Counted from the stretch's first letter, positions 5,787 through 19,249 are shown. The stretch is DNA of 20,000 nt from an uncultured virus (IMG/VR IMGVR_UViG_3300003690_000004) (IMGVR_UViG_3300003690_000004); one strand, 5' to 3'. Notes: generated from the sequence alone by a model not told the origin. Numbers and translations: made by a program.

Positions 5787-5789
5787 CTT

Positions 5790-6181: not shown

Positions 6182-6182
6182 C

Positions 6183-6488: not shown

Positions 6489-6895
6489 CAGAGGTCCCTC
6501 CGTGGGGCGAAGTCTGAGTCCTTTTCTATTGATGGCATACAGTCGGGGGCCCGCGCCTCTTTGCAGTACGGCTGGTCCCATTCACCCCCGAGAAAGAACA
6601 TATCGCGGGCGGTTGCCACAGCCCCGCATGATAGACATACGAAGGTTCCGTGGGCGCGACCCTCCAACCATTCCTCCGGGCGATTGTTTGCGACAATCCC
6701 TTGAAAAACACCCATGACTTTCTCAACGAATTCTTCTGAATTATTTTCCATCCACTGTTCGATATCAATTTTGAGGTCTTCGTCCATCTCAATATCCTCG
6801 TGGATTTCATCTTCACATACGCACAGGATATCCTCTGCGGTGAAAGTCATCTTCCACAGTAGCCACTTGGGGGGTCGGAAGTCGTTTGGTAGCAT
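6488..6895 (-). CDS. Acidic protein with C-terminal Cys cluster (MLPNDF...)
   Basis: AGGAGG RBS before ATG at 6895; CLSC...C...C. Confidence 0.7.
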   Translation of the reverse strand: MLPNDFRPPKWLLWKMTFTAEDILCVCEDEIHEDIEMDEDLKIDIEQWMENNSEEFVEKVMGVFQGIVANNRPEEWLEGRAHGTFVCLSCGAVATARDMFFLGGEWDQPYCKEARAPDCMPSIEKDSDFAPRRDL

Positions 6896-6896
6896 T

Positions 6897-7049
6897 CTAT
6901 TCTTCCTCCTGATTGTGCGGACAGACATGAATTGGGTTTGTCTTATCCAAGTGTTCGCGGCAGGTATGCGTCGGCAATTCGTTACCGCACTTGCGGCATA
7001 TTACACCACGGAGTACCGTCATATCAAGGTTTATCATGTCGGTCGCCAT
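6897..7049 (-). CDS. Small Zn-finger protein missed by the ORF track (50 aa, MATDMINLDMTVLRGVICRKCGNELPTHTCREHLDKTNPIHVCPHNQEEE)
   Basis: Manual translation; GGAG RBS; TATAAA at 7091-7086; stop abuts the next ATG. Confidence 0.7.
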   Translation of the reverse strand: MATDMINLDMTVLRGVICRKCGNELPTHTCREHLDKTNPIHVCPHNQEEE

Positions 7050-7197
7050 CGCCGCTCTCCGCTAATCTGAACAGACCTTCGGTAGTTTATAGTCTTAGTG
7101 ATATTGGCGTTTAACTACCATTGGTAATCAAAAGAAAGGGCTTCGCTATGGTCGGAATTTGTTACGGCCAAAATTTCTGCCTCCGTGTTTATACAGT

Positions 7198-7530
7198 TTA
7201 GGATGACTCTGCGCGCTCAACGGACCAACCCATCTCGGACGCCTTCTCTCCGAGAACCTGTTGGTGGACGCTTGAAGTGCAGTCGTTGACCCACGCCTCC
7301 GCCTCTTTGAGCCACGCCTCCGCCTCCCCCCCGGTGGCCGAGCCCGCGTAGTAGTTAAGGTGGAGGCCGAGGTTTGGAATCTTGATTCGGACGGCGATAT
7401 ACCGGTTCTTTCCGGGTTCGGGGTTGTCCCAATTCCATAGTCGGATTGTCCCGCACTTGAATGTGTCTAACACACGCGCGAGATTAGGTAGGTCGCAACG
7501 GTGTATGTCGTATTGATTTGTGGTATTCAT
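7198..7530 (-). CDS. Hypothetical protein (110 aa)
   Basis: GGAGAGAG before ATG; T-tract downstream. Confidence 0.75.
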   Translation of the reverse strand: MNTTNQYDIHRCDLPNLARVLDTFKCGTIRLWNWDNPEPGKNRYIAVRIKIPNLGLHLNYYAGSATGGEAEAWLKEAEAWVNDCTSSVHQQVLGEKASEMGWSVERAESS

Positions 7531-7545
7531 CTCTCTCTCTCCGCT

Positions 7546-7638
7546 CTAATCTGACGATTGAATAACCTCGCTATTAACCTTGCCGGTCAACCCATTAGTG
7601 GTCCACGAGTAGTCCGGGGGATTTTTCTCTTCCGTCAT
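7546..7638 (-). CDS. Putative leaderless 30-aa peptide (MTEEKNPPDYSWTTNGLTGKVNSEVIQSSD)
   Basis: ATG 21 nt after the TATA 10-mer of the promoter cassette at 7660-7703. Confidence 0.4.
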   Translation of the reverse strand: MTEEKNPPDYSWTTNGLTGKVNSEVIQSSD

Positions 7639-7659
7639 TACTCTGAGCAGAGCGTTGGC

Positions 7660-7703
7660 GATTTATAATCATATTGATGGCGTGATTTATTAAAATTGTA
7701 ACC
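7660..7703 (-). promoter_or_regulatory. Promoter cassette A copy 1
   Basis: GGTTACAATTTTAATAAATCACG-N11-ATTATAAATC. Confidence 0.8.
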
Positions 7704-7716
7704 TCGGTCAACACTT

Positions 7717-7724
7717 AAAAAAAA
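7717..7724 (-). terminator. Oligo-T terminator (archaeal type)
   Basis: T8 run after the last gene of the upstream operon, just before the promoter cassette. Confidence 0.55.
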
Positions 7725-7748
7725 CGGCGGGCGTCTTAGTCGTGGTGG

Positions 7749-7868
7749 TCACTGCTTCGTCCCCCATATCCCACCGTGGCGGTGATGCTCGATACAGAAG
7801 ACCTTCGGTAGTTTGTCGGAAGTCGAAAACCATGAGCGAATGCTTTTTCCACAAGTGGCGCACTTCAC
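7749..7868 (-). CDS. Small Zn-finger protein missed by the ORF track (39 aa, MKCATCGKSIRSWFSTSDKLPKVFCIEHHRHGGIWGTKQ)
   Basis: GAGGTGA RBS, GTG start, CxxC...CxxH. Confidence 0.65.
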   Translation of the reverse strand: MKCATCGKSIRSWFSTSDKLPKVFCIEHHRHGGIWGTKQ

Positions 7869-7879
7869 TCTTTCACCTC

Positions 7880-8014
7880 TCAATCCAACCACCCCATGAC
7901 CTTCACCAAGATGAGAATAGCAACAAGGAGATTAGCGAAGCCGACGAGCGTTCTCGTCAATTGCATTTGGCCGACATGATGGTTTGACCAATCCTCGATT
8001 TCATCACCCGTCAT
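7880..8014 (-). CDS. Small membrane protein missed by the ORF track (44 aa, MTGDEIEDWSNHH...LVGFANLLVAILILVKVMGWLD)
   Basis: GAGGTGA RBS; hydrophobic C-terminal helix. Confidence 0.7.
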   Translation of the reverse strand: MTGDEIEDWSNHHVGQMQLTRTLVGFANLLVAILILVKVMGWLD

Positions 8015-8020
8015 GTTTTT

Positions 8021-8257
8021 TCACCTCTTCTTTTCTAACCTCATCCAAAATATGTTGTCGCTTCGGCGGTTCTGCTCAAAGGTCCCTTCGGGCCAACCAG
8101 CATAAGGATTATCTTGCCAAAGACTCCCAAACTCAACATTTCCAAAGGCGTCTTGTGCGTCGTTGAGGAAACGGAAGTAGCGACTCATCACTCTTTTCCC
8201 CTCAAAATCCACACCTGTTACCTTGTAAATTATACAGCAATTCATCCGGTGTACCAT
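8021..8257 (-). CDS. Hypothetical protein (MVHRMN...)
   Basis: ATG at 8257 directly after the stop of 8263..8811. Confidence 0.65.
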   Translation of the reverse strand: MVHRMNCCIIYKVTGVDFEGKRVMSRYFRFLNDAQDAFGNVEFGSLWQDNPYAGWPEGTFEQNRRSDNIFWMRLEKKR

Positions 8258-8262
8258 CGGAC

Positions 8263-8811
8263 TCACTCTTCCTCGTCGCACCCACACCAACAGTTTTGGC
8301 AGAAGGCATTCGCGCAACCGTCGCAGTCCTCTAAGTCACTTTCTTCGGAGTAGTCGGAACAGCCCGCGCATTGACCGTAACCGTCGCAGGGCGTATTATT
8401 GATGATAACCGGAGCCGCTTGACGGGTGCCCCAGCGGTCGTCATCGGCCGTGTCTAACTGTGGGTATTCCATGAAAAACAGACCCTCCTGTTCTGAGGGT
8501 TCTCGCTTCAACATATAGCGGGGGATGATGGCTATAAGCCCACTATCAACACCTATCTCTTCGCCGCCGACGCACTCTGAGGGTTTTTGATGCTTGAATT
8601 CCCAACACCCATCACCGCCGGGTGATGAATGAATCTCGCAGAGGGCCCATTTGGCCGGAATTTCGTCAAAGGTGGTGGGGATGCTCACTGATACAGGGTA
8701 TGAAACTTTTCGCAGTTTGTTTTCCATGTGGCTGTACTGCTCTTTGGAGAGAACATAACAGGGGTCCCCCACGAAGTATTCCCAATCTGTTTTTATCTCT
8801 AAAATCGTCAT
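8263..8811 (-). CDS. Conserved viral hypothetical protein (GDPCY / GDG / VDSG motifs, DUF4241-like) with Cys-rich C-terminus
   Basis: YFVGDPCYVL, GGDGCW, IGVDSGLIAII; C-terminal CAGC..CDGC..CQNC; GAGGTGG RBS. Confidence 0.7.
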   Translation of the reverse strand: MTILEIKTDWEYFVGDPCYVLSKEQYSHMENKLRKVSYPVSVSIPTTFDEIPAKWALCEIHSSPGGDGCWEFKHQKPSECVGGEEIGVDSGLIAIIPRYMLKREPSEQEGLFFMEYPQLDTADDDRWGTRQAAPVIINNTPCDGYGQCAGCSDYSEESDLEDCDGCANAFCQNCWCGCDEEE

Positions 8812-8823
8812 GTTTTTCCACCT

Positions 8824-9057
8824 CTAAACTATGTTCCCACACCATGCACAGAAAGGGGCCCGATTATCATAGACGGCACGGCCTCCGCGGGTATAGCGGA
8901 TATGGCCGTGGGACCCGTTGCCTGCGTTGCACCACTGCCACTCGCCCTCTAGGAAATAAACAGGACTGCATCGGGATTGGTCGTAGTCATCTCTGTCGGC
9001 CTTGCTTATGCCAATGCACGCAGGGGGCCACGGGTGAATCTCAGTAATCGTCGTCAT
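8824..9057 (-). CDS. Small Cys/His protein (MTTITE...)
   Basis: GGAG RBS; C...H...CAWC. Confidence 0.6.
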   Translation of the reverse strand: MTTITEIHPWPPACIGISKADRDDYDQSRCSPVYFLEGEWQWCNAGNGSHGHIRYTRGGRAVYDNRAPFCAWCGNIV

Positions 9058-9328
9058 CTTCTTTCTCCACGGGCAGATTGACGCAATCGTCAATACAATA
9101 GAGCAGGTGTCCGAGCCAAATTTGGAAGTTTATGTTTCTCTCTCCGATTTCATCCAATTCGGTGACTTTGCTCTGGATTAACCTTTTGAGACTCTCTTTA
9201 TTGACTGCGCCAAACTCAGCAAAATCTAAGTCTGTTCTTACGACTTGGGTTCGGTGTCCTTCAAGGCACGAAAAGTCAGCGGGACCGAGATTACCACCAC
9301 ACTCTGCACAGTAGCCGATATCAGTCAT
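9041..9328 (-). CDS. Hypothetical protein with N-terminal Zn ribbon
   Basis: CAECGG...CLEGH; GGAGG RBS. Confidence 0.7.
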   Translation of the reverse strand: MTDIGYCAECGGNLGPADFSCLEGHRTQVVRTDLDFAEFGAVNKESLKRLIQSKVTELDEIGERNINFQIWLGHLLYCIDDCVNLPVEKEDDDDY

Positions 9329-9542
9329 TTTTTCGCCTCCCGTGTTTCATGCCGCGTGTCGTGATAGTACGGTTCCGGCAGGTGATGGAGCAGAACATAC
9401 GAGCGTTCCACTGCTTATCGCTGACGCCGTGTCGTCCGCGCGGACGATAGAATTCCTCTGCACAGCATTTGCACACCTTTGAGAGGAAATAGAAGTAGTC
9501 GCGCCCGTCGTACCGCGGGTCGAAAGGTGGTCCCGTCCGCAT
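9321..9542 (-). CDS. Small Zn-finger protein (CxxC...FCSxxC)
   Basis: KVCKCCAEEF...FCSITC; GGAG RBS. Confidence 0.7.
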   Translation of the reverse strand: MRTGPPFDPRYDGRDYFYFLSKVCKCCAEEFYRPRGRHGVSDKQWNARMFCSITCRNRTITTRGMKHGRRKND

Positions 9543-9545
9543 ATT

Positions 9546-9803
9546 TTACTCTCCGTTCAATTCCTCTTCCGCGAGGGTCATGTTATCTTTGAAGGTGCCA
9601 ATGTGCGTGTCGCACTGAAAACAAGCGAGGGTCTTAACCTCATCCTCGTCCTTATTAAGAAAATGAATCATCCATCCGAGGCTCAGAGAGGTTTCTCCAC
9701 AGGAGCGGAAATTCGGACATTTAATTGCATGGGTGATTCCATCGTACCCGTACTCTTTGGTGGTCCCGTCCGCATAGGTGATTAGTCCGATATGCTCCAT
9801 CAC
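9546..9803 (-). CDS. Small Zn-ribbon protein
   Basis: CPNFRSCG...CFQCD; AGGTGA RBS. Confidence 0.7.
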   Translation of the reverse strand: MMEHIGLITYADGTTKEYGYDGITHAIKCPNFRSCGETSLSLGWMIHFLNKDEDEVKTLACFQCDTHIGTFKDNMTLAEEELNGE

Positions 9804-9806
9804 TCA

Positions 9807-10037
9807 TCACCTATTAATTTTCCACGCCTCTTTTGCCTGTCTGTATCTGCGGACTATCTCGTCGTATGAGCGGGCGATGAAACTGAGCCACACGCCGATG
9901 AGGGCTCCGAATAGGAAGGTCGTGAAGGGATGATGTGATAATTCATAAAAATCACCACTGAAATATGCTAAGGCGACCGGTGCGCCAACAACAAGCGGCA
10001 TGGCGATAAGACAAGCCTCTGCGTCGTTATCAATCAT
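9807..10037 (-). CDS. Small membrane protein (2 TM)
   Basis: Two hydrophobic segments; GGTGA RBS. Confidence 0.7.
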   Translation of the reverse strand: MIDNDAEACLIAMPLVVGAPVALAYFSGDFYELSHHPFTTFLFGALIGVWLSFIARSYDEIVRRYRQAKEAWKINR

Positions 10038-10377
10038 CCGGCATCACCGTGTCTCTGATATCAATTACGAAGGGGGCATGGTCATCATGCGAGCGGACAC
10101 CCTTCCAATCAACCTCGCCCGCGGCCATCTCGCCGGCGTCTATGATTAACTGCCTTTGATATCCTATGAGGTCCCACAGCACTTGGCAGTCATCATTTGC
10201 CATGTGCGCTTCGACGCTATCCGTGGGATTCAATTCAAGGTATTTCTCTTTCAGAAATTCCATCGTTTTCTCTGCGATACTTCGGATTCTCTCGTGGCGA
10301 TGCTGGAAGCGTATCGTGAATTCGTAGCCGCGCTCTTCGTCTTCGCCACCGGTAACGGGGTTGTACTTCGTCATCAA
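10030..10377 (-). CDS. Hypothetical protein
   Basis: GGAGGGGTGA RBS; operon-packed. Confidence 0.75.
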   Translation of the reverse strand: MMTKYNPVTGGEDEERGYEFTIRFQHRHERIRSIAEKTMEFLKEKYLELNPTDSVEAHMANDDCQVLWDLIGYQRQLIIDAGEMAAGEVDWKGVRSHDDHAPFVIDIRDTVMPDD

Positions 10378-10782
10378 TCACCCCTCCAAGTCATCCCTAT
10401 TAACCCTGACGGTTTGCTCATCTAAGGTCTTGCTGATATCCTCTGCCACGATGTCGTTCGGGTCCCCGCGTGGTATGATATCCCATGCGTCTGATTGACT
10501 CTGTTCAACCTCGACCGTAGCCTTTCCGGCCTCGCTCATGTGCTTGAGCGCGAGCAGAGCGAATTTGCAGTTTTGAACGGAGCCATCCTCTAGGACCGTA
10601 AGAATTTTACGGGCACTCTTTTCCTCAATGATACATCTGTACACGAGAGCATTTCTATGCCTGTTTGCTTGAGCGCGTTGGTGCATTACACTCTGCATGG
10701 CGGACGCGCAGGGGATGAAGCACTCAAGGCCCATGTCGTCGGCGATACCCATGTAGCATCTGCGCTGTCCTTCATCGCTCAT
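10378..10782 (-). CDS. Hypothetical protein (MSDEGQRR...)
   Basis: GGAGGG RBS; ATGA coupling at 10782. Confidence 0.75.
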   Translation of the reverse strand: MSDEGQRRCYMGIADDMGLECFIPCASAMQSVMHQRAQANRHRNALVYRCIIEEKSARKILTVLEDGSVQNCKFALLALKHMSEAGKATVEVEQSQSDAWDIIPRGDPNDIVAEDISKTLDEQTVRVNRDDLEG

Positions 10783-10937
10783 GTTCGGGTCCCTCCGAAG
10801 AAACACTTCATCGAGCAGAAGACCTTCGCATCTAAGGCGTTTTGAAGGGCGGGGCCATCGCCACGCATCCCGAAGTCACAAGTCTGCCCACAGCGACAGC
10901 ATACGCTGGGTACCTCTTGGTTAACTACTCCGCTCAT
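10779..10937 (-). CDS. Leaderless small Zn-finger protein missed by the ORF track (52 aa, MSGVVNQEVPSVCCRCGQTCDFG...VFCSMKCFFGGTRT)
   Basis: ATG exactly 19 nt after GTTAAATACT; CxxC...FCSxxC; stop overlaps the next ATG. Confidence 0.75.
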   Translation of the reverse strand: MSGVVNQEVPSVCCRCGQTCDFGMRGDGPALQNALDAKVFCSMKCFFGGTRT

Positions 10938-10956
10938 AATTAACCATTATCTTCCA

Positions 10957-11000
10957 AGTATTTAACTGTTGTGATTTCGTGATTTATTAAAATTGTAACC
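10957..11000 (-). promoter_or_regulatory. Promoter cassette A copy 2
   Basis: GGTTACAATTTTAATAAATCACG-N11-GTTAAATACT. Confidence 0.85.
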
Positions 11001-11037
11001 ACGGGGGGCCGCTTTGCACACACGAGCCATCAAGATT

Positions 11038-11322
11038 TCAGCCCTTCTTTTTGAGGCCCAATTGAGAGAGAAAGACCCGATAGGATTTCTTGATGAAATC
11101 GAATCCTGAATTGGTTTGGAATTTCACACAAGGCACCCAGCGGCCGCGAATGAGCCTACCCCGAAAATCGTTGTGAGATGATTCCGAGTATGGTTCATAG
11201 TGAGATTTCTCCCAGCGATATTCGACCAACATGAGGTACATTTTCTGCGGTGGAGCGCCTGCTCTCTTTGGACGCCGGGTGCGATAGTGTGGTAGTGATA
11301 CCCTGAATTTCTTATCACGCAT
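11038..11322 (-). CDS. Basic hypothetical protein
   Basis: Overlaps the stop of the upstream gene; last gene of the unit. Confidence 0.65.
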   Translation of the reverse strand: MRDKKFRVSLPHYRTRRPKRAGAPPQKMYLMLVEYRWEKSHYEPYSESSHNDFRGRLIRGRWVPCVKFQTNSGFDFIKKSYRVFLSQLGLKKKG

Positions 11323-11602
11323 AGCCGAGCGCCTTCCTGACGATTAGGATTTCAAAGGGTAATTGTTCTATCATTTTCCACCGTAGGTATTCACAGGTCA
11401 AGAACAGGTGGAATTCCGGTGGGTACTGCTCGTGGTCGAATACGGCAGGCCCGAAGGGCGGAATGAATTCGTGGAGCGTTAACGCCCCGTTCATCCTCTG
11501 AATCCAAGCAATTTTCTTTCTCATTTGCTTTTTCCACAAGTGGAATCCGATGACCTTCTGTTCTGCCTCTTTCATGCGGGCCAGCGCCTCCATTTTGGTC
11601 AT
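11315..11602 (-). CDS. Hypothetical protein (MTKMEA...)
   Basis: ATGA coupling at 11602; GGTGA RBS. Confidence 0.7.
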   Translation of the reverse strand: MTKMEALARMKEAEQKVIGFHLWKKQMRKKIAWIQRMNGALTLHEFIPPFGPAVFDHEQYPPEFHLFLTCEYLRWKMIEQLPFEILIVRKALGYA

Positions 11603-11781
11603 AGCAATATCACCGCCACAGCCATGCCGGTGAAACCGGCAAGAAAACAAATCCCGATTTTGAGTAAGAATAACAATTCCCGAATTTCTTCGTCGTACAC
11701 CGCCTGCGAGAAACCCGAAGGGTGCGGCGGTCCTGTTCCGACCGGTGGGGCAGGGGAGAAACGCTCAGGCTTCAATTTCAT
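11599..11781 (-). CDS. Small membrane protein (MKLKPE...)
   Basis: C-terminal hydrophobic segment; ATGA coupling. Confidence 0.65.
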   Translation of the reverse strand: MKLKPERFSPAPPVGTGPPHPSGFSQAVYDEEIRELLFLLKIGICFLAGFTGMAVAVILL

Positions 11782-12248
11782 CGCCCCACCGAATCCCAAT
11801 TAATCCAGCCCTCGCCGTCGTAGTCGCGGAGGCACTCAGTCGCCCACGCATCAACGGAGGTGTATTCGTCCAGCATTAGGAAGGTCGCCACCGTTGCGCT
11901 CTCGGCTCGGTCAAGGGTTCGGCTCGCGCCGTCATACCAATCTAAGAACCAAAACTCAATCGAGCCGTCGGCGTATATCCTGACTTCTTCGGACGGGCCA
12001 CCCCAAGAGAATTGAAACCTAACGAAGCCGCGACGCTGTTCGTTGAAGGTTCCAGCCCCCACGAAATCTAGCGATAGGCCGTAGTCGTATGGCTCGCCGT
12101 CCTCGTCGGGCTTGTAGCCGTCGGGGTTGTCGTCTGCGTCGTACTCCCCTTGATTGAATCTCTCAAGGTCAGCAAGGCGCGAGTCCCGCGCAGGGCATAC
12201 CCTATCTGCGCACTTATCGCTGATGGGGGCGTTATCACTCATATTCAT
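11778..12248 (-). CDS. Conserved viral hypothetical protein (YGLS..SWGGPSEE..LDWYDGA)
   Basis: Aromatic/acidic motif pattern I recognise from uncharacterised virus proteins; ATGA coupling. Confidence 0.75.
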   Translation of the reverse strand: MNMSDNAPISDKCADRVCPARDSRLADLERFNQGEYDADDNPDGYKPDEDGEPYDYGLSLDFVGAGTFNEQRRGFVRFQFSWGGPSEEVRIYADGSIEFWFLDWYDGASRTLDRAESATVATFLMLDEYTSVDAWATECLRDYDGEGWINWDSVGR

Positions 12249-12553
12249 CGCCCCCTAAGTTTCCGGAATGACTTGAGGCACGACGGACACATTTCAGCGT
12301 CCGTTGGTTTTCCCTTTCGGAATCCCCTTCCGCACATCAAGCACTTGAAATGAAGTCGCTCTTCCTTTTTAATAATGAGGCGCCGCTTCTGACCTTCCGG
12401 AGTCCAATCATGCAGGCGCGTGATGTTGTTCTTGTGACGAATGCTTTTTCCCGTGTTGATAGTTTTTATGACTTCATCCAAGCCATCACCCTTTCTAATG
12501 GATTTATCACTCATACGACATTTCACCTTCCAAAACTCCTTCCCACGGTCCAC
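12245..12553 (-). CDS. Basic protein with C-terminal Zn ribbon
   Basis: CLMCGRGF...CPSC. Confidence 0.65.
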   Translation of the reverse strand: MDRGKEFWKVKCRMSDKSIRKGDGLDEVIKTINTGKSIRHKNNITRLHDWTPEGQKRRLIIKKEERLHFKCLMCGRGFRKGKPTDAEMCPSCLKSFRKLRGR

Positions 12554-12887
12554 CCCTTTCTGAGTTTTTCTGCCGTAGTTTGGCTACGCACCCGCCGAGG
12601 CTGTGCGAGTCAATGTGGAGTATTTTGGTCCTGTTGCGAGACACGAGGCAGAGCCGGAAGGTCATGCCACCGGTTACAAGCGGGGACTCGTCGTGATTAT
12701 TATTCAGGGGAGAAATTGCTATGCTGACGCCGGAGTCTGCGAGTAATTTCATCTCTGTGTGACTGAGCCAATGGGTGATTCCGAGGTACCGCTCGCTCGC
12801 GGCATAGCCGTCATCCCGAGAAAAATCGGCCTCCGTACTTTTGAAATCGGTCGAAGGACACTGACTGAATCCGCTCCACTCATTCAT
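12507..12887 (-). CDS. Hypothetical protein (MNEWSG...)
   Basis: GGAGGGTGA RBS before ATG at 12887. Confidence 0.6.
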   Translation of the reverse strand: MNEWSGFSQCPSTDFKSTEADFSRDDGYAASERYLGITHWLSHTEMKLLADSGVSIAISPLNNNHDESPLVTGGMTFRLCLVSRNRTKILHIDSHSLGGCVAKLRQKNSERGGPWEGVLEGEMSYE

Positions 12888-13146
12888 CGCCGTCACCCTC
12901 CGCATTCGTTGGAATGATGATGCCGTCCTTGTGTCCGAGCCAATCCGAATCATACTTCTCTTGGTCCTTCGTGCGCTGATTCTTAGGCGTGAAGCCCAGC
13001 GGGTCTTCAAGCCACGATTGGAATGCCTCGTGGGTGACGATTCTTGGTCGGCGGATGAAAAACAAGAAATCGCCGTCCACTTTACCGGCGCGGAGCGTAT
13101 TGCTGTGGAGTTTGTGGCCTTCCCAGCCGCACTCGCAATCAGACAT
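12880..13146 (-). CDS. Hypothetical protein, N-terminal CxCGW
   Basis: GGAGGT RBS. Confidence 0.7.
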   Translation of the reverse strand: MSDCECGWEGHKLHSNTLRAGKVDGDFLFFIRRPRIVTHEAFQSWLEDPLGFTPKNQRTKDQEKYDSDWLGHKDGIIIPTNAEGDGDE

Positions 13147-13249
13147 GAATTATACCTCCGATGCCATCGCGTATAGCCTTATCGGGAAGGTATTCCTCAT
13201 AGGTCCACTCATCGGTTTCGACACGCAGTCTGAGAATCAAGGTAATCAT
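13139..13249 (-). CDS. Putative 36-aa protein missed by the ORF track (MITLILRLRVETDEWTYEEYLPDKAIRDGIGGIIHV)
   Basis: ATGA coupling with 13246 stop; GGAGGGG RBS; fills the gap exactly. Confidence 0.55.
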   Translation of the reverse strand: MITLILRLRVETDEWTYEEYLPDKAIRDGIGGIIHV

Positions 13250-13449
13250 GGTACCCCTCCGCAGGTGAGGCACACCCAAATGATTTGGCGACTAAAGCCC
13301 CATACCCGCGCCTCTGAGGTCGGGCATGGGCAGGTGCAATCGAACAGGTCATGGCCTAGAAGGTGAATCATACTACGCCTCCGCACCGCGTACACAGGGA
13401 CCATCGCCCGGGGCCGCGTCCGCTCAGAGTCAAAATCGGCAGGAAACAT
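13246..13449 (-). CDS. Small Cys-rich protein
   Basis: CTCPC...CLTCG; ATG abuts the upstream stop. Confidence 0.55.
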   Translation of the reverse strand: MFPADFDSERTRPRAMVPVYAVRRRSMIHLLGHDLFDCTCPCPTSEARVWGFSRQIIWVCLTCGGVP

Positions 13450-13617
13450 TCACACTTCTGTTGAGTCAAATTCTTCACCACCGTTTTCCATCTCATCTAA
13501 GCAATCTTGGGAGCATATTCGGGGGCCGAATTTGTACTCCCCGTTCGCATCCGTGTGAACATCTGCGCAACAGCAGTCACAGCGCCCGTCACGCTCAAAG
13601 CGTCGCTCAAGCCCCAT
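13450..13617 (-). CDS. Small Zn-finger protein (MGLERRFE...)
   Basis: GGGAGGGG RBS; CDCCC...ICSQDC. Confidence 0.6.
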   Translation of the reverse strand: MGLERRFERDGRCDCCCADVHTDANGEYKFGPRICSQDCLDEMENGGEEFDSTEV

Positions 13618-13960
13618 CGGACCCCTCCCTGCCGATTTTGACGCTGTGACTGCTCGCGCCCAATTTGAGAATCGTATCAACGGTCGCGCTTCGGAATCGT
13701 TCGCATCCATCCATCATGGCCTTGATATCATCGTCGGTGAGTCTAATCATCGCGCCGATGCGCGTCCCCGTTGAGCCGATTATCTCGATGTGCGGGGATA
13801 TGGTACCGAGTACGATACGGGCCCTGACGGTGCCCTTCTTGAAGGGCAGTCCCCTCTCGGGAAGGTCAATCATTATCGGGGGTACATCCGAAAAGGTCAT
13901 AGGGCCCCGATAAGGATGGAGCCTGCCTGCTTCGCGGTGTTCTTTCTGTGAATCAACCAT
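13607..13960 (-). CDS. Hypothetical protein (MVDSQK...)
   Basis: GGGGAGGG RBS before ATG at 13960. Confidence 0.65.
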   Translation of the reverse strand: MVDSQKEHREAGRLHPYRGPMTFSDVPPIMIDLPERGLPFKKGTVRARIVLGTISPHIEIIGSTGTRIGAMIRLTDDDIKAMMDGCERFRSATVDTILKLGASSHSVKIGREGSDGA

Positions 13961-14339
13961 TATAAATTCCCTCCCCAATTAAATCCTTTCGGATATCTCG
14001 GAATGGTTTTTCAGTGAATGAAGTGTCGCGCTCAATCGGGAGCATCATGGAGCCCGGGGACCGCGCTACTGCATTGAATTCTGCCATTGAAAAGTAACCC
14101 CACTCACCGAAGGTGCCGTCCACGAATCCGAACCATGTTTGATTTTCTTCATCCCACTCGGTCGCGTACCAAGTCCAAGAAGACCACGGATGGAAATACT
14201 TGGCAACGATGATAGTCCCGTCAGGAAATCGTTCGGAGGAATCCTTGAGTCGTGGGTCCTGCCCGCCTGCTCTCCAATCCTGCGAGCCGTGCCTGTCGAA
14301 GCGTTGCTTTAGGTACTTCGGCATCAATTTTGCTTGCAT
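13953..14339 (-). CDS. DUF2958 family protein
   Basis: VAKYFHPWSSWTWYATEWD...FGFVDG..EWGYFSMAEF...PIERDTSF is the characteristic pattern; AAAGGAGG RBS. Confidence 0.85.
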   Translation of the reverse strand: MQAKLMPKYLKQRFDRHGSQDWRAGGQDPRLKDSSERFPDGTIIVAKYFHPWSSWTWYATEWDEENQTWFGFVDGTFGEWGYFSMAEFNAVARSPGSMMLPIERDTSFTEKPFRDIRKDLIGEGIYNG

Positions 14340-14687
14340 AATTTTTCCTCCTTTGGGTTTCCGGCGACCCCCCCGCCGCCGAGCGGAGGACGCCTATTCC
14401 GGCCCTTGAGAAGCAGGCGGGCCGCTCCCTCTCTCCCCGCCGGAGTGCAATCGGGGACCCACGCCCGCCGTCCGGGCTGTGCGGGATTTGCACCCGCGGT
14501 GATGGGCCCCGAGCCTGTAACTCCGAGATTGCGCCACGCTCCAAACGCTCGCATAACCCGGCTGTCGGGGAGAGGTGAAGCGGGTACTCCCGCATTCCCG
14601 ACACCACACAGAATCACATCTGCTCTCACGGAATTAACCGGAGTATGGCTATCGGTTCGGGAGGGAGCCACCCCTCCTTCTGCCTCT
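14340..14687 (-). ncRNA. Candidate structured RNA or 5' leader (~350 nt)
   Basis: Starts at the predicted TSS of cassette copy 3 without ATG; many nested stems with G-U pairs; T-loop-like hairpin GCGGG-TGCAAAT-CCCGC. Confidence 0.6.
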
Positions 14688-14706
14688 AATTAACCATATA
14701 TGTTCA

Positions 14707-14750
14707 AGTATTTAACTGTTCCGATTTCATGATTTATTAAAATTGTAACC
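14707..14750 (-). promoter_or_regulatory. Promoter cassette A copy 3
   Basis: GGTTACAATTTTAATAAATCATG-N11-GTTAAATACT; 14687-14750 closely resembles 10937-11000. Confidence 0.85.
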
Positions 14751-14882
14751 CGGGCCCCGCTCCCCCGTGTGCGCCCGCAGGCACACACTTTTTCCACGAC
14801 CGTTTATCTGTCGCAGGCCACGCAGATGTAAGAGGAAATCAGGTCCGAATTTGTCCCGAGGGGGAGGCCGCCTCCACAGACC

Positions 14883-15149
14883 CTACAAACCAGCATTGAT
14901 TTTTCCCTCCCGAATTTCTTCATCTCGTGCGCGTGCTTGAATGAATGCTACGCGGTCGCGCGTCACCCACACGCGGGGGTTACGGGTCCCACATTTTCTG
15001 CATCTGCTTTCCTCGGTGCCGGGGCGCTGTGTGACCCACAGCCATAGATGACCGCAACAATTCGCCCGTCGCTTTTCGCAGGTCGGAGCAATTTTGATTG
15101 GGCCCACACGCGAGGACGCGGGGAAAACCCAAGTCAGTTTTTCTGCCAC
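14883..15149 (-). CDS. Small Zn-ribbon protein
   Basis: GAGGTGA RBS, GTG start; CCGH...CRKCG. Confidence 0.7.
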   Translation of the reverse strand: MAEKLTWVFPASSRVGPIKIAPTCEKRRANCCGHLWLWVTQRPGTEESRCRKCGTRNPRVWVTRDRVAFIQARARDEEIREGKINAGL

Positions 15150-15152
15150 GGT

Positions 15153-15293
15153 TCACCTCTCGGGCGGCCACGGGGTCGTCGGCGCCGAGAGAATTCGGCG
15201 GATGAAAAACATGGTGATGGCCCACTTGAAGCCGGGCGTACCCACGATGACGGGGGGGTCCATCCGCATGAGGATGAGAGCCTCAGTTTTCAT
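15153..15293 (-). CDS. Putative 46-aa protein missed by the ORF track (MKTEALILMRMDPPVIVGTPGFKWAITMFFIRRILSAPTTPWPPER)
   Basis: Fills the gap between neighbours; its stop lies in the RBS of the next gene. Confidence 0.5.
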   Translation of the reverse strand: MKTEALILMRMDPPVIVGTPGFKWAITMFFIRRILSAPTTPWPPER

Positions 15294-15558
15294 CGGAGTC
15301 CCCCGGCATGGTTAATTCCAACCACCGCTTTCTTGAGATGATTTCCCACTCCTTCGGGTCGAATCCGACCTTCGGAATCGCTTCCCAAGTCGGCTGTTTT
15401 CTGCCACGGAATTCTATGAAGCCTCGGAAGAGATAACCCGCCCGCGTCACGACTTCGCGCTTGAATTCGGCCTCCGTTTTATTCCAAAGGATGCTCGTTA
15501 CGGGCATTCGTGGTTGCCCCCACTTGGTCAAGTGGGCGACGGGAATCTCAGCCTTCAT
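15283..15558 (-). CDS. Hypothetical protein (MKAEIP...)
   Basis: GGAG RBS before ATG at 15558 (alternative ATG at 15570). Confidence 0.65.
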   Translation of the reverse strand: MKAEIPVAHLTKWGQPRMPVTSILWNKTEAEFKREVVTRAGYLFRGFIEFRGRKQPTWEAIPKVGFDPKEWEIISRKRWLELTMPGDSDEN

Positions 15559-15646
15559 TTTTCTCCGCATTTTCGGCCTCCGTTTTATTCCAAGCCTTAA
15601 GGCACGAGTGGCAGATAGCACGGTCTTGGCATAGGCACTCAGTCAT
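15548..15646 (-). CDS. Putative 32-aa Cys-rich peptide (MTECLCQDRAICHSCLKAWNKTEAENAEKNEG)
   Basis: GGAG RBS right after the predicted TSS of cassette copy 4. Confidence 0.55.
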   Translation of the reverse strand: MTECLCQDRAICHSCLKAWNKTEAENAEKNEG

Positions 15647-15676
15647 TTTCGGCTCCGAATATCCATGTTTTGTGCA

Positions 15677-15720
15677 AGTATTTAACGGTTCCGATATCGT
15701 GATTTATTAAAATTGTAACC
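15677..15720 (-). promoter_or_regulatory. Promoter cassette A copy 4
   Basis: GGTTACAATTTTAATAAATCACG-N11-GTTAAATACT. Confidence 0.85.
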
Positions 15721-15893
15721 GGCTGTCGGGGAGGAACCGAAAATTCGCCCGGGGGTCTGCGGACTCTCTCTTTTTTAACGGCTCCCGATTTCTTCCGAAG
15801 GAAATCTGTGCCTGATTTATTATACTTTTCTGCGGTGGTTTTTGTAACCCGGTAGGTGTAAGCCGCGAGGGCGCCGCGCGTGTGGGCTCCCCC

Positions 15894-15914
15894 GGTTACA
15901 ATTTTAATAAATCA
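15894..15914 (+). promoter_or_regulatory. Inverted copy of the cassette A upstream element, without TATA
   Basis: GGTTACAATTTTAATAAATCA on the plus strand; GC-rich where TATA should be. Confidence 0.7.
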
Positions 15915-15959
15915 GCCTGCGAATCTGCGGGCGCGGGTTACAAAAAACGAATCCACGAT

Positions 15960-16331
15960 AAAAAAAGGGGGGGTCGAGGGGGCTCACCGTGTCGGCTTTC
16001 CCCGGTTTCCCGGGCACCCCCCCGACCTTATGTGTCCGCTCATCACACGACCTCGCGCCGATGATTTCAGCCCCCGTAATCTCCCTCGGTTCCGTGCGCG
16101 ATTCCGGAGCCGTTGCCCGTGCATCTCAACCTTCGGATTTTCGCCCGGTGGATTCCTCCTGAGAATCCCAGCCTCATCTGATACAGGGGTTAAACGGTTT
16201 CCCATTCTCCCTCGCACACTTCGCCGACAGATTTTCGGGGATTGATTTCATCAACGGTCGCTCGTGTGGTGCGGCCTATTGCTCCGCTCTCGCGGAGGAC
16301 ACGCGTGTGACGGGCTCACGGACCTCGATAA
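15960..16331 (-). ncRNA. Candidate structured RNA 3' of DUF932 (~370 nt)
   Basis: GNRA-capped hairpins, long-range closing stem, terminal stem followed by T7. Confidence 0.6.
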
Positions 16332-17462
16332 TCAGAGGTACATTTCCGTGAGAATTCTCATCGCCTTTTCCTTGCGTTGCTTACCGTGCCTGAACACGGC
16401 CGATTCGTCGCGGCGAAGTTTTGCCTTCCCCGCATTCTTTCCGGACTTGATGATTCTTGCTTCGTGGTCAACCCACTCGGTCACGACATTGATTCCCTGC
16501 CATGCCGTGTCGTTCATCTGTCCGATTCGGTTTGACTTCCGCTTCTTGATGCTGTTCAATTCCTTGAGTCGCCTCTTGGATGAAGTCACCAATTGCCCGC
16601 GCTTGCTGTGTTTTTCGCCCGCGCTATCCTTCTCCGGATAGGTCGAAAGGTCGAAGACCTCGATGAAAAATTCGTCCATCGCTTTCTTCGTCATTTTGAC
16701 TTGGATTAGGTCGTTGGCAATTACGCCGAATTCCTCGTGCCATTTCATAGCCCAACCGAAAGCCTCTCGCACATCATCCACGCGGTTCATCATATTCCCC
16801 GTGTGCCTGATGTTGAAGATTTCTTCCCTCGATTTTGCCTCTCCCAGCGCCATGCTGAGAGTGTTTTGGCATACAACGCGAACGGTGGTCGGAAGGACCT
16901 TGACTGAGCCTGTGCCATCGTGACTGTTCGTGAGCAGAACATAGAGGTCTTGACGGTCATCGTCGCCGATGTTTATTGAATGTGGAATTTTCGCCAACAT
17001 CCAAACCTTTTCCCCCTGCCCTAGAGCCCCCGCACAGTCAAAATTTGCCTCCTGCGATTGTACTAATTCGTCCATGAAAGTGAAGGCGTCGTGATTTTGG
17101 AGCGGTACATAAACCCGCCCAACAGCCTTCCCCTTGCGCGAGAGGGCGCGGCGGTCGCCGCCACCCTTTGCCTCACGATAGGTCATATATGTCTCAGGTG
17201 CTTCCAAAATTTCGGTTCGCTTGATAACGGGCGTCCCGTCCTTCTTTCGCTTGATGCGTCCTGTTGGGGTCCGCGCATACACGGGGACCTTTGCCTCAAG
17301 CGGCACCTTATGGACCGTCCAATCGAGATGTGCTAATTCAAGGCATTCCTGAGAAGTCATCAAGCCCGGGGTCGTTACCCCGAGGCGGTGCCACGGGGTC
17401 TGTCCCGAGCCGGTGACTACTTCGTAATTCCCGTCTGCGTCAACGCTGATATTTGCTACCAT
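16332..17462 (-). CDS. DUF932 family phage/plasmid protein (TIGR03299-like)
   Basis: TPWHRLG, LDWTV, YVPLQNHDAF, GALGQGEKVWMLAK, YVLLTNSHDGTGS, RVVCQNTL, IRHTG, TAWQGINVVTEWVDH motifs; AGGAG RBS. Confidence 0.9.
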   Translation of the reverse strand: MVANISVDADGNYEVVTGSGQTPWHRLGVTTPGLMTSQECLELAHLDWTVHKVPLEAKVPVYARTPTGRIKRKKDGTPVIKRTEILEAPETYMTYREAKGGGDRRALSRKGKAVGRVYVPLQNHDAFTFMDELVQSQEANFDCAGALGQGEKVWMLAKIPHSINIGDDDRQDLYVLLTNSHDGTGSVKVLPTTVRVVCQNTLSMALGEAKSREEIFNIRHTGNMMNRVDDVREAFGWAMKWHEEFGVIANDLIQVKMTKKAMDEFFIEVFDLSTYPEKDSAGEKHSKRGQLVTSSKRRLKELNSIKKRKSNRIGQMNDTAWQGINVVTEWVDHEARIIKSGKNAGKAKLRRDESAVFRHGKQRKEKAMRILTEMYL

Positions 17463-17820
17463 TGTTTTCTCTCCTGTCGGTTTGACTAGCGGCCACTTGA
17501 TGCTCAGGCGAGGCTCCCGAGCCTCACACCTTTCGCGTCACCGTACCACGGCTTCGGATTGGCACCTTTGGGAATTCCAGCCCTCATTTTTCTCCCCTCG
17601 GAGGTTCGCCGGTGGTCCTGTACCGATTGCAGTCGGTACGCCACCGACGGCCCCCCTTTGAGTGTACGCAGTCCTGCCCGGCCCTCGCGGGTCCCGGGGT
17701 CCTTTGCCTCGTACCGGAAATCAGAAGAATTCGCTAGTCGGATTCGTTACTGCCTTAGACGCTAAGGTCGTAGGCAGGAGGGTTTCTGAGGGGGGTATTT
17801 CGCCGCCCTTTTTCGCCCTC
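17463..17820 (-). ncRNA. Candidate structured 5' leader/RNA upstream of DUF932 (~360 nt)
   Basis: Begins at the predicted TSS of cassette copy 5; multiple hairpins; 8-bp long-range pair GACTAGCG/CGCTAGTC. Confidence 0.55.
17504..17587 (-). CDS. Possible 27-aa leader peptide (MRAGIPKGANPKPWYGDAKGVRLGSLA)
   Basis: GGGGAG RBS; start region nearly identical to that of the gene at 15558. Confidence 0.3.
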   Translation of the reverse strand: MRAGIPKGANPKPWYGDAKGVRLGSLA

Positions 17821-17839
17821 AGTTATCCATCCCTCTACT

Positions 17840-17883
17840 ACTATTTAAGGCTTCCTATTTCATGATTTATTAAAATTGTAACC
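17840..17883 (-). promoter_or_regulatory. Promoter cassette A copy 5
   Basis: GGTTACAATTTTAATAAATCATG-N11-CTTAAATAGT. Confidence 0.85.
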
Positions 17884-18433
17884 TGCGCTTATGAATCCTG
17901 CGGTTGATTTTGTAACTGAGCCCCCCACGCGGGCGTGAGGGATTTGGACCTCTAATATCCTGTTATCCGGCCGCGTCACACGCTCACGCGCGAGAGGCTC
18001 ACCTAATGAACATTCTGTTACTTAGTGTGCCGGAGGTTACTTAGTATCTATTTGGAAGTCCACCCCACCTCCCTCCCTGTGGTCTGTTTTGAGTGGTGGA
18101 TTTTACCGAACCGGTTCGGTTTTGTAACTCCGATTTTGTAACCGGGGGTTTCGCCCGTGGGAAACCACAAAATGTAACCTAGAAATTGTAACTTAGGATT
18201 TCAGCCCCCGAAATTTGAAATTTAGCAGACGGCGTTTTTGTAACCTCTTTAAGGCCCGTCGAAAAGAGCGAAAAAATTGTAACCGCGATTTTGTAACCTC
18301 GGCGGGGGCGCGGAGCCGGTGGCGGGAGTTACAATTTTGTAACTTGGTATTTTTTGTAACCCAAAACTCTTTAAGCCCCGAAATCCTGAGTTACAAAATT
18401 GTAACCCACGCAGGTTACAAAATTGTATCTTCA

Positions 18434-18455
18434 AAACCGTTGTACTGCGAGCCTG
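18434..18455. repeat. Motif B copy 2
   Basis: AAACCG-TTGT-ACTGCGAGCCTG. Confidence 0.75.
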
Positions 18456-18638
18456 TTTTCAAAAATTGTAACTTGGGAGCGAGCCCCCCCTGTACTCCCC
18501 TACTCAGAGCCACCGGCGCCGTCGAAGTTACAATTGGGGCGCAGTACAACGGTTTTTTTTGTAACCCCGATTTAGCGTAAAAATAACAGCCTCCCATGCG
18601 CATAAAATCCGAAGGCGGGGGTTGTTCATCGGCGTCAC

Positions 18639-18682
18639 AGTATGTAAAGGTGCCGATATCGTGACTTATAAAAATTGTAACC
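18639..18682 (-). promoter_or_regulatory. Promoter cassette A variant, leftward
   Basis: GGTTACAATTTTTATAAGTCACG-N11-TTTACATACT. Confidence 0.65.
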
Positions 18683-18726
18683 CCGGAATTGTAACCGCGA
18701 CCCGAAGTACAAAATTGTAACCCCCA

Positions 18727-18770
18727 AGTTACAATAAGCATAAGTCACGATATCATCACAGTGATATACT
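18727..18770 (+). promoter_or_regulatory. Promoter cassette A variant, rightward
   Basis: AGTTACAATAAGCATAAGTCACG-N11-GTGATATACT, then 19 nt to ATG 18790. Confidence 0.75.
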
Positions 18771-18789
18771 ATGCCGACGAGTCCCAACC

Positions 18790-19020
18790 ATGCAAACAGG
18801 ACCACAAGACGAGCCGATGACCGGACAGAACCCGACAGTCGAGGCCAACGGCTACATCATGCGATGGGAGCCAATGGACCCGTACCTTCACGATAGACTG
18901 TCGCTCGGAGCGGGTCAAGGCGACCGCATCAGTACCCCGAACGCCACCACGACGAACGACCTCGGAGAGTGCCCCGATGAGAACGACGGGTGCCCCTCCG
19001 TACAGTGGGGGGTGGCATGA
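18790..19020 (+). CDS. Leaderless acidic hypothetical protein (76 aa)
   Basis: ATG at the same TATA distance (19 nt) as the gene at 10937. Confidence 0.65.
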   Translation: MQTGPQDEPMTGQNPTVEANGYIMRWEPMDPYLHDRLSLGAGQGDRISTPNATTTNDLGECPDENDGCPSVQWGVA

Positions 19021-19193
19021 TGGCGGCGATAGATGACGCGCTTCAAGTCGTGCTGTGCCATAACCTCGTGTGGCTGATGGCATACACGGCGCTTGACTTC
19101 GGGGGGTGGTTGTGACCGGCGTATTGTAACCTCGGCAAATTCGGCCTTTTGTAACCGGGGCCCCTCTTTTCCTATCGAAAATCGGCGATATTA

Positions 19194-19249
19194 ATTGTAA
19201 CCCGGGTATTGTAACCCGGGTATTGTAACCTCGGAATTGTAACCGGGGA
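19194..19249 (+). repeat. 4 x 14-bp tandem repeat ATTGTAACCNNGG(T/A)
   Basis: Units at 19194, 19208, 19222, 19236. Confidence 0.9.

What the first reader, a model, noticed from the sequence alone, without database searches (positions are those of the whole stretch)
14340..17883. Candidate system: early-promoter-driven structured RNAs clustered with DUF932 and DUF2958
Seen: within 3.5 kb of an otherwise gap-free gene array, three similar-sized (~350-370 nt) folded segments occur. Two start at predicted TSSs of cassette A and two bracket DUF932 in a single-gene unit (promoter - RNA - DUF932 - RNA - T7). Knowledge: DUF932 and DUF2958 are widespread, functionally uncharacterised proteins of phages and plasmids. 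Inference: an undescribed RNA-protein module (RNP, RNA decoys or processed ncRNAs) expressed first after entry. I could not see primary-sequence similarity among the three RNAs.
Basis: inference. Interest (0 to 1): 0.8.

Follow-up and report, generated by a model that had tools for sequence, protein, structure and literature searches.

The report
Long folded mRNA flanks, phage early genes
Three GC-rich non-coding stretches in the early region of an uncultured marine phage are real, but they look like long untranslated leaders and a trailer of two early messenger RNAs, not a separate RNA-protein machine.

Summary
The window is the early region of an uncultured marine/vent tailed phage with genes on the minus strand. 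The three stretches exist: A 17463-17819 (357 nt, leader of DUF932), B 15958-16331 (374 nt, trailer of DUF932, ending in a branched GC stem plus T7) and C 14340-14686 (347 nt, leader of DUF2958). All lack coding signal and have 60-65% GC against 52% for the window. A and C follow copies of a repeated promoter-like cassette.

Folding excess is modest: z -0.6, -3.2 and -3.15, against a background of -0.44 +/- 1.35. No Rfam family matches.

The only relative with DNA (59% DUF932 identity) keeps long GC-rich gaps at all three places. Only A, the terminator and the cassette are conserved in sequence there. The fold predicted for A is not kept above chance.

None of 21 distant DUF932 loci has a comparable upstream gap, and 19 of 21 have a downstream gap of 45 nt or less. 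A small hairpin motif occurs only in the leader and the terminator of the DUF932 unit, in both phages.

My reading is cis-acting structured untranslated regions (about 0.5). The RNP or decoy idea is untested and unlikely (about 0.12).

The parts
17820..17883 (-). Promoter-like cassette in front of the DUF932 unit. It has a 21-nt invariant core starting GGTTACAA, then a second AT-rich block.
   Evidence: One of 6 minus-strand copies (family D1). The core is identical in relative G001.
17463..17819 (-). Segment A: 357-nt untranslated leader of DUF932, GC 0.60, T 0.14
   Evidence: No coding signal. 74% mean column identity to G001 in the alignment. Fold z -0.60. The MFE pairs are not conserved above the null.
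17750..17820 (-). Two adjacent hairpins at the 5' end of leader A
   Evidence: Independent folds of the window and G001 give the same two-hairpin layout. One stem pair shows a compensated change: GAGGG/CCCUC against GAGAG/CUCUC.
17504..17587 (-). Short upstream ORF (27 aa) with a Shine-Dalgarno-like GGAG 5 nt upstream. Its start region is 88% identical over 26 nt to 15541-15566 in the neighbouring gene.
   Evidence: family D12. The G001 counterpart is 15 codons, of which by my reading of alignment A1 7 encode the same residue and 3 of those differ only at the third base. This is thin evidence.
17538..17553 (-). Small hairpin motif A-GCCG-N5-CGGU-GA, leader copy
   Evidence: The pattern occurs exactly twice per phage, on the minus strand only, in the leader and in the terminator.
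16332..17462 (-). DUF932 gene (376 aa)
   Evidence: Pfam 1.3e-51. PHROG 1221, 2.3e-68. AlphaFold2 model with pLDDT 87.
15958..16331 (-). Segment B: 374-nt 3' untranslated trailer of DUF932, GC 0.60
   Evidence: No coding signal. Fold z -3.22. Only the last ~80-90 nt are conserved in G001: 91% over 80 nt.
15960..16027 (-). Intrinsic terminator: a 12-bp GC-rich stem enclosing two small hairpins, then a C-run and seven U
   Evidence: All 12 stem pairs are identical in G001. The inner hairpin keeps its stem while its loop changes. The second inner hairpin (15984-15997) is the other copy of the motif.
15894..15914 (+). Inverted copy of the 21-nt cassette core, pointing back into the DUF932 unit
   Evidence: Not conserved in G001.
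15657..15720 (-). Cassette copy in front of a block of small genes (15548-15646, 15283-15558, 15153-15293, 14883-15149, 14804-14896)
14687..14750 (-). Cassette copy in front of the DUF2958 operon
14340..14686 (-). Segment C: 347-nt untranslated leader of DUF2958, GC 0.65
   Evidence: No coding signal. Fold z -3.15. It cannot be aligned to the 516-nt G001 counterpart except at the two ends.
13953..14339 (-). DUF2958 gene (128 aa), first gene of a long minus-strand array
   Evidence: Pfam 1.5e-10. 74% identical to the G001 protein.

Best explanation
The three stretches are the untranslated parts of two early phage messenger RNAs.

Layout:
- Each of the two units starts at a copy of the repeated cassette.
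- The DUF932 unit is monocistronic. It runs cassette, 357-nt leader, gene, 374-nt trailer, then a very stable branched intrinsic terminator.
- The DUF2958 unit starts a longer operon behind a 347-nt leader.

Proposed mechanism (inferred, not shown): the GC-rich, U-poor, heavily paired leaders act in cis. They would partly mask the ribosome-binding site and keep a long untranslated RNA folded, which sets how much and when the two proteins are made. The folding would also protect the RNA from degradation or premature termination. The terminator structure closes and stabilises the 3' end.

What seems to be selected is mostly 'being folded and GC-rich'. A specific fold is not kept, except for three pieces that are conserved: the 5' two-hairpin element of leader A, the terminator, and a small hairpin found in both.
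For: Shown by calls:
- The stretches are non-coding by codon usage and by Pfam.
- A and C sit between a cassette and a Shine-Dalgarno/ATG, and B between a stop codon and a terminator.
- They are GC-rich: 0.60, 0.60 and 0.65 against 0.518 for the window. In the relative they are 0.56, 0.56 and 0.51 against 0.446 for that contig. G exceeds C, and T is 0.14-0.16 in the window.
- All six stretches fold better than their shuffles: z -0.60, -3.22, -3.15, -1.87, -3.65 and -2.50. The background is -0.44 +/- 1.35.
- The minus-strand folds of B and C are 12-20 kcal/mol more stable than the plus-strand folds.
- The long gaps are kept at the same three places in the only relative with DNA.
- Leader A aligns at 74% and the terminator at 91%, where DUF932 coding DNA aligns at 68%.
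- The Shine-Dalgarno is less accessible than with shuffled leaders in 4 of 4 leaders. Observed against shuffled mean: 0.43/0.51, 0.30/0.44, 0.18/0.58 and 0.16/0.41. The number of 25 shuffles at or below the observed value was 9, 5, 1 and 1.
- In contigs of two other metagenome runs, records lying on A, B and C carry 2 substitutions in 2277 nt. Records on coding DNA carry 25 in 3072 nt (naive Fisher p 1e-4).
Against: - No transcript data exist: no listed run is on record as RNA, and only contigs could be laid. Transcription starts, ends and processing are therefore all inferred.
- Fold excess is modest, and absent for A in the window.
- The fold predicted for A is not conserved in the relative: 42 of 81 pairs against a null of 41.4.
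- Shine-Dalgarno masking is weak in the window itself (9 of 25 and 5 of 25 shuffles do as well).
- Most of B and all of C are not alignable between the two phages, which also fits non-functional spacer.
- The strain-level count rests on low-depth contigs. Some differences are shared between the two runs, and they may be clustered by recombination.
- Only two independent sequences of this lineage could be read.
Confidence: 0.5

Rival explanations
1. Spacer or gene debris. The stretches are leftovers of module shuffling between repeated cassettes (decayed or replaced genes). They have no function of their own beyond holding a promoter, a ribosome-binding site and a terminator.
For: - Most of B and all of C cannot be aligned between the two phages, and their lengths differ: 374 against 265 nt, and 347 against 516 nt.
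- Gene content between cassettes differs between the two phages. The small ORFs between 15720 and 14750 differ from those between G001 12617 and 11760; only the Cys-rich and the zinc-ribbon mini-proteins are shared.
- Leader A holds a 26-nt stretch 88% identical to the start region of a neighbouring gene (family D12).
- The fold of A is not conserved.
Against: - Decaying DNA in a phage should drift towards the genome's composition or be deleted. Here all six stretches are 6-13 points richer in GC than their genomes, and all fold better than their shuffles.
- The gaps persist at the same three places at a divergence where DUF932 is 59% identical.
- A is conserved about as well as coding DNA.
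- Strain contigs show fewer changes in the stretches than in the genes.
Confidence: 0.25
2. The stretches are discrete non-coding RNAs (processed species, decoys or partners of DUF932/DUF2958) that form an early RNA-protein module.
For: - The flanks are kept around the same two genes in both phages.
- The same small hairpin motif occurs only in the leader and in the terminator of the DUF932 unit, in both phages. That is 4 matches against about 0.2 expected, with a pattern chosen after seeing the data.
- Few strain-level changes fall in the stretches.
- A conserved two-hairpin element lies at the 5' end of A.
Against: - No RNA family matches, and there is no conserved overall fold.
- No promoter or terminator pair isolates A or C from the downstream gene.
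- Among 21 DUF932 loci at 33% identity or less, none has an upstream gap over 124 nt (measurable in 15), and 19 have a downstream gap of 45 nt or less (crude gene calls, many from one phage group).
- The 41%-identical DUF2958 locus has a tRNA gene upstream instead.
- The DUF932 model has no match to RNA-binding folds: no Foldseek match at E<=0.001, and best VIA Z of 6.2.
Confidence: 0.12
3. DNA-level elements. The stretches act as DNA, for example as binding regions for the protein that recognises GTTACAA, as replication or packaging signals, or as single-strand promoters like those of plasmid leading regions.
For: - GTTACAA is highly enriched: 36 copies against 1.4 expected. It flanks the DUF932 unit at 17876-17916 and at 15842-15943.
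- Plus-strand folds are also better than shuffles, at z -2.75 and -2.52.
Against: - The GTTACAA copies lie outside A, B and C, not inside them.
- The longest inverted repeats inside the stretches are 11-18 nt at 73-85% complementarity, so there is no long hairpin of the single-strand-promoter type.
- The composition is strand-asymmetric (G>C, T-poor on the transcribed strand), and the transcribed strand folds better.
Confidence: 0.05

Closest known systems
PeSL (promoter-early stem-loop) cassettes of T4-type phages (PMC2839356, search listing only; PMC4122927, abstract read)
   Same: - A short composite regulatory motif is repeated many times in the variable early region of a phage: 6 copies in 11 kb here and 7 in the relative.
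- Different small genes sit between copies in related phages.
- Some copies sit just after a hairpin or a T-run, for example upstream of 7703 and 14750.
   Different: - This is a different phage lineage: no DNA match to 50,697 GenBank phage records.
- The motif sequence is different.
- PeSLs are not described with 350-nt GC-rich leaders.
- A role in recombination was not tested here.
Structured 5' untranslated leaders that mask the ribosome-binding site or stabilise the message (ompA-type 5' stem-loops, translational operators; recalled background, no paper read)
   Same: - The position between promoter and start codon.
- 5'-terminal hairpins.
- A Shine-Dalgarno predicted to be partly paired.
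   Different: - They are far longer (about 350 nt) and GC-rich.
- There is no conserved overall fold.
- The effect on translation or stability is untested.
Intrinsic (Rho-independent) terminators
   Same: A GC-rich stem directly followed by a U-run at the end of the DUF932 unit.
   Different: - The stem encloses a three-way junction with two inner hairpins.
- It is far better conserved (91%) than the surrounding genome.
- It shares a hairpin motif with the leader.
3'UTR-5'UTR pairing of one mRNA (icaR type, PMC3868564, as named in earlier finding e1-5703430 for another DUF932-like gene; paper not read)
   Same: A DUF932 gene bracketed by a long leader and a long trailer.
   Different: Tested here and not found. 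The best leader-trailer duplexes are no better than with a shuffled trailer. For the window, 5 of 30 (whole leader) and 94 of 100 (RBS window) shuffles did as well; for G001, 20 of 30 and 90 of 100.

Membership tests
Any Rfam RNA family | A covariance-model match at the family's gathering score | tested here: not met
   There were 0 matches at gathering score over the whole window. At E<=5 over 14000-18800, none of the 6 weak matches lies in A, B or C. At E<=1 on the relative there were 3 weak matches far below gathering score, including one at the terminator region and one inside its trailer.
PeSL cassettes | A short composite motif repeated in the variable early region | tested here: met
   There are 6 minus-strand copies plus 1 inverted core in the window, and 7 copies in G001.
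PeSL cassettes | A terminator stem-loop joined directly to an early promoter in each copy | tested here: inconclusive
   A T8 run lies upstream of 7703 and GC hairpins lie upstream of 14750 and 17883, but there is no uniform stem-loop in all copies. The promoter elements themselves are not mapped.
PeSL cassettes | Membership of the T4-type phages, and indels bounded by the motif between close relatives | tested here: inconclusive
   Terminase and portal are present in G001, but there is no T4-type evidence. Gene content between cassettes differs between the two phages, but the breakpoints were not mapped.
Intrinsic terminator | A GC-rich hairpin followed at once by a U-tract on the transcribed strand | tested here: met
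   A 12-bp stem at 15972-16027, then a C-run and U7 at 15960-15966. It is conserved in G001.
DUF932 (PF06067) | A Pfam model match above the curated cut-off | tested here: met
   176 bits against a cut-off of 23, E 1.3e-51.
DUF2958 (PF11171) | A Pfam model match above the curated cut-off | tested here: met
   41.8 bits against a cut-off of 21, E 1.5e-10.
Single-strand DNA promoters of plasmid leading regions (Frpo/ssi type; recalled, no paper read) | A long, nearly perfect hairpin of about 300 nt whose stem recreates -35 and -10 boxes | tested here: not met
   The longest inverted repeats inside A, B and C are 11-18 nt at 73-85%. The element is a tailed phage, not a conjugative element.
Self-pairing leader/trailer mRNA (icaR type) | A trailer complementary to the ribosome-binding region of the same mRNA | tested here: not met
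   Duplex energies are no better than with shuffled trailers in either phage.

The most novel reading that the evidence does not exclude
The DUF932 unit may be an autoregulated RNA-protein unit.

- The same small hairpin (A-GCCG-loop-CGGU-GA) sits in its leader and inside its terminator, in both phages and nowhere else in 58 kb.
- It could be an operator bound by an early phage protein, possibly DUF932 itself.
- The flanks, which are unusually free of strain-level variation, could then be released as stable early RNAs.

If so, this would give the first functional handle on the widespread DUF932 family.
Probability: 0.1. Interest if true: 0.7.

Novelty: new member of a known kind. Interest (0 to 1): 0.33.

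Why it matters
DUF932 and DUF2958 are common in phages, plasmids and integrative elements, and their function is unknown. In this lineage both genes carry unusually long, GC-rich, folded untranslated regions, while neighbouring early genes do not. That suggests their dosage or timing is tightly controlled after infection.

The hairpin shared by the leader and the terminator gives a concrete, cheap test: does any phage protein bind it? As it stands the finding is a lineage-specific example of structured mRNA flanks plus a repeated early-promoter cassette, not a new class of system.

Tried and rejected
- **Near and distant DNA searches.** The region found nothing in GenBank phages or PLSDB plasmids.
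- **Whole genome.** None is held for this window.
- **Search for more relatives.**
  - The exact cassette core in viral and genome contigs gave one true relative, G001, and two chance hits.
  - The degenerate core gave 16 loci, of which only the 3 from G001 are related by multiple matches.
  - The DUF932 profile in metagenome contigs gave 2 loci: one is 99.95% identical to G001 and one is 28% identical.
  - The DUF932 profile found none in genome contigs.
  - The 82% and 75% identical proteins come from contigs whose DNA I could not fetch.
- **Sequencing runs.** No RNA holder is listed. One run labelled metatranscriptomic (flagged 'probably DNA') holds two short contigs, at 16210-16360 and 16899-17099. 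All runs laid were contigs, so there are no starts, ends or levels.
- **Read-through of DUF932 into its flanks.** With TGA read as sense, the DUF932 frame is open through A and B in the window. In G001 the gene ends in TAG and the flanks carry TAA and TAG in frame, and all close homologues end at the same residue. Rejected as chance in T-poor sequence.
- **Leader-trailer pairing.** Rejected (a first attempt timed out).
- **MITE-like terminal inverted repeats.** None found.
- **DUF932 fold search.** No Foldseek match at E<=0.001, VIA-align best Z 6.2, and a PDB sequence profile search with no hit below E 0.02. So there is no functional clue either way.
- **Literature.** 'DUF932' occurs in 13 papers and 'DUF2958' in 2. 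I read passages of one preprint (10.1101/2025.06.20.660599), which only reports mutations in a DUF932 gene of an integrated plasmid after phage exposure. I saw no paper on RNA elements next to these genes in those listings.


Full report
**What the window is.** Nearly all plausible genes lie on the minus strand, and 35 of 38 ORFs tested have no Pfam family. The region has no DNA match in GenBank phages or PLSDB plasmids, and no whole genome is held. The protein search lists the window's DUF932 on a 76-kb contig.

One relative with readable DNA was found through the cassette core: an IMG/VR contig of 37.9 kb, here called G001. G001 encodes a terminase-like protein, a portal and a collagen-repeat protein, so this is a tailed phage. 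G001 is collinear with the window at about 68-72% DNA identity in genes. Public runs that hold the stretch are labelled hydrothermal-vent, marine-sediment and seawater metagenomes.

**The observation.**
- DUF932 (16332-17462) and DUF2958 (13953-14339) are confirmed.
- A 64-nt cassette occurs six times on the minus strand, with an inverted copy of its 21-nt core at 15894. G001 has seven copies, and the core is identical in the two phages.
- Codon-usage log-odds trained on the window's long ORFs are positive in DUF932, DUF2958 and some small ORFs. They are about zero or negative in all frames of A (17463-17819), B (15958-16331) and C (14340-14686).
- The 9 ORFs inside or overlapping these stretches hit no Pfam family.
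- B ends in a 12-bp GC-rich stem that encloses two small hairpins, followed by a C-run and seven U.

**Is it folded more than chance?**
- As whole segments the z-scores are -0.60 (A), -3.22 (B) and -3.15 (C).
- Thirty-three 380-nt control windows from 1-13820 gave mean -0.44, sd 1.35, with one of 33 at or below -3.
- In 200-nt windows the stretches do not stand out: 15 of 199 windows reach -2.5.
- The three G001 counterparts give -1.87, -3.65 and -2.50.
- All six stretches therefore fold better than their shuffles and better than the background mean, but only moderately.
- Composition is more striking. GC is 0.60-0.65 against 0.518 in the window, and 0.51-0.56 against 0.446 in G001, with G above C and little T on the transcribed strand.
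- The minus strand of B and C folds 12-20 kcal/mol better than the plus strand.

**Comparison with relatives.**
- G001 keeps long gaps at the same three places (304, 265 and 516 nt), so the equal sizes in the window are a coincidence.
- Leader A aligns at 74%.
- Its first 90 nt fold independently into the same two hairpins in both phages, with one compensated stem change.
- The fold predicted for the whole of A in the window is not kept in G001: 42 of 81 scorable pairs remain pairs, against 41.4 +/- 3.9 under a column-matched null.
- Only the last 80-90 nt of B, the terminator, are conserved, at 91%.
- C aligns only at the cassette and at the ribosome-binding site.

**More distant homologues.** None of the 21 DUF932 loci at 33% identity or less has a comparable upstream gap.
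- Upstream gaps are 0-124 nt in the 15 loci where they could be measured.
- Downstream gaps are 45 nt or less in 19 of 21 loci and 262-273 nt in two.
- These are crude ORF-based calls, and many loci come from one phage group.
- A 41%-identical DUF2958 gene has a tRNA gene and AT-rich spacer upstream.
- The long flanks are thus a trait of this lineage, not of the protein families.

**Other cassette-driven genes.** These start much closer to their cassette. From the sequences shown, the ORFs after window 11000 and 15720 and after G001 12617 and 10084 begin within tens of bases of the cassette's second block. By the ORF list, the larger ORFs after 7703 and 11000 begin about 110-130 nt from the cassette.

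**Extra features.**
1. *Shared hairpin.* A small hairpin motif, A-GCCG-N3-5-CGGU-GA, occurs exactly twice in each phage, on the transcribed strand only. One copy lies about 90 nt before the DUF932 start and the other is an inner hairpin of the terminator. Shuffles of both sequences together give 0.2 matches, but the pattern was defined after seeing the data. In 23 other loci (162.6 kb) there are only two matches, both on the opposite strand of one GC-rich locus.
2. *Upstream ORF.* Leader A carries a short ORF with a GGAG five bases before its ATG. The G001 version shares 7 of 15 residues, three through third-base changes (my reading of alignment A1). Part of that conservation is the hairpin motif itself, and its start region is 88% identical to a stretch of the neighbouring gene.
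3. *Ribosome-binding site.* The Shine-Dalgarno of all four leaders is predicted to be less accessible than with shuffled leaders. The effect is clear in G001 (1 of 25 shuffles as low, twice) and weak in the window (9 and 5 of 25).
4. *Strain variation.* In contigs of two other runs, records lying on A, B and C carry 2 substitutions in 2277 nt. Records on coding DNA carry 25 in 3072 nt, a mix of synonymous and non-synonymous changes. This suggests constraint. It rests on low-depth contigs, some differences are shared between the runs, and they may be clustered by recombination.

**Interpretation.** The simplest account is that A and C are long 5' leaders and B is a long 3' trailer of two early mRNAs, acting in cis. 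Persistence at the same three sites, GC enrichment in both phages, consistent excess folding and low strain-level variation all argue against mere debris. The lack of a conserved overall fold and the turnover of B and C argue against specific trans-acting RNAs. They fit selection for a generally folded, G-rich, U-poor untranslated RNA, with a few specific elements: the 5' hairpins, the terminator and the shared hairpin. The idea that such RNA would resist Rho and nucleases is inference from general knowledge, not tested here.

**Other ideas tested.**
I tested it, and it does not hold here.
- Read-through of DUF932 into its flanks is excluded by G001.
- DUF932 itself gave a confident model (pLDDT 87) without any convincing solved relative, so nothing speaks for or against RNA binding.

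**Known relatives of the idea.**
- The cassette resembles in kind the PeSL promoter/terminator cassettes of T4-type phages (PMC4122927, abstract read; PMC2839356, listing only). It occurs in an unrelated phage and has a different sequence.
- The leaders belong to the broad class of structured mRNA leaders.
- No Rfam family matches.

**Verdict.** The RNP/decoy interpretation is unsupported but not excluded. The finding is of moderate interest, mainly because of the gene-specific long flanks and the hairpin shared by the leader and the terminator.

Noticed in passing
window 17876-19243 (and each cassette): GTTACAA occurs 36 times in the window against 1.4 expected, and 26 of the copies lie between 17876 and 19243. 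Four are in a 14-nt register at 19195-19243. Three more flank the DUF932 terminator (15842, 15895, 15937). This is probably the site of a phage DNA-binding protein: operators or origin iterons.
   Followed up: partly
window 4397-4562: An AT-rich 166-nt gap between genes gives the strongest fold excess among the 380-nt control windows (z -5.3 for 4201-4580). The 200-nt window 4401-4600 gives z -4.6 at GC 0.38. It also holds one of three copies of a 24-nt repeat (4509, 18434, 19937, family D7).
   Followed up: no
window 18601-18800: The strongest fold excess of all 200-nt windows (z -6.5) lies around the cassette copy at 18682, where GTTACAA copies sit in inverted orientation. The roughly 700 nt downstream of this cassette, to 17884, hold no convincing gene.
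   Followed up: no
window 15283-15646: A 32-aa Cys-rich ORF (15548-15646) matches the N-terminus of a 61-aa ORF of G001 (48% over 29 aa). The G001 protein continues with residues that the window encodes in the next ORF (15283-15558) in another frame, across a run of A. This points to a split gene, a frameshift or a homopolymer error.
   Followed up: partly
window 14804-14896: A 30-aa CxxC...CxxC mini-ORF overlaps the end of the 88-aa ORF. It is one of the few stretches between the two cassettes that is conserved in G001 (blastn hit 14810-14847).
   Followed up: partly
window 15894-15914 (+): An inverted copy of the 21-nt cassette core points into the 3' end of the DUF932 unit. If the core alone is a promoter, it would give an antisense RNA through the terminator. 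It is not conserved in G001.
   Followed up: partly
L054 2205-2282: In another viral contig, a tRNA gene (called tRNA-Ala by ARAGORN) sits directly upstream of a 41%-identical DUF2958 gene.
   Followed up: partly
L013 12640-18669: G001 encodes a 2009-aa protein with 13 collagen-repeat stretches and a weak carbohydrate-binding-module match. It is probably a fibre.
   Followed up: no
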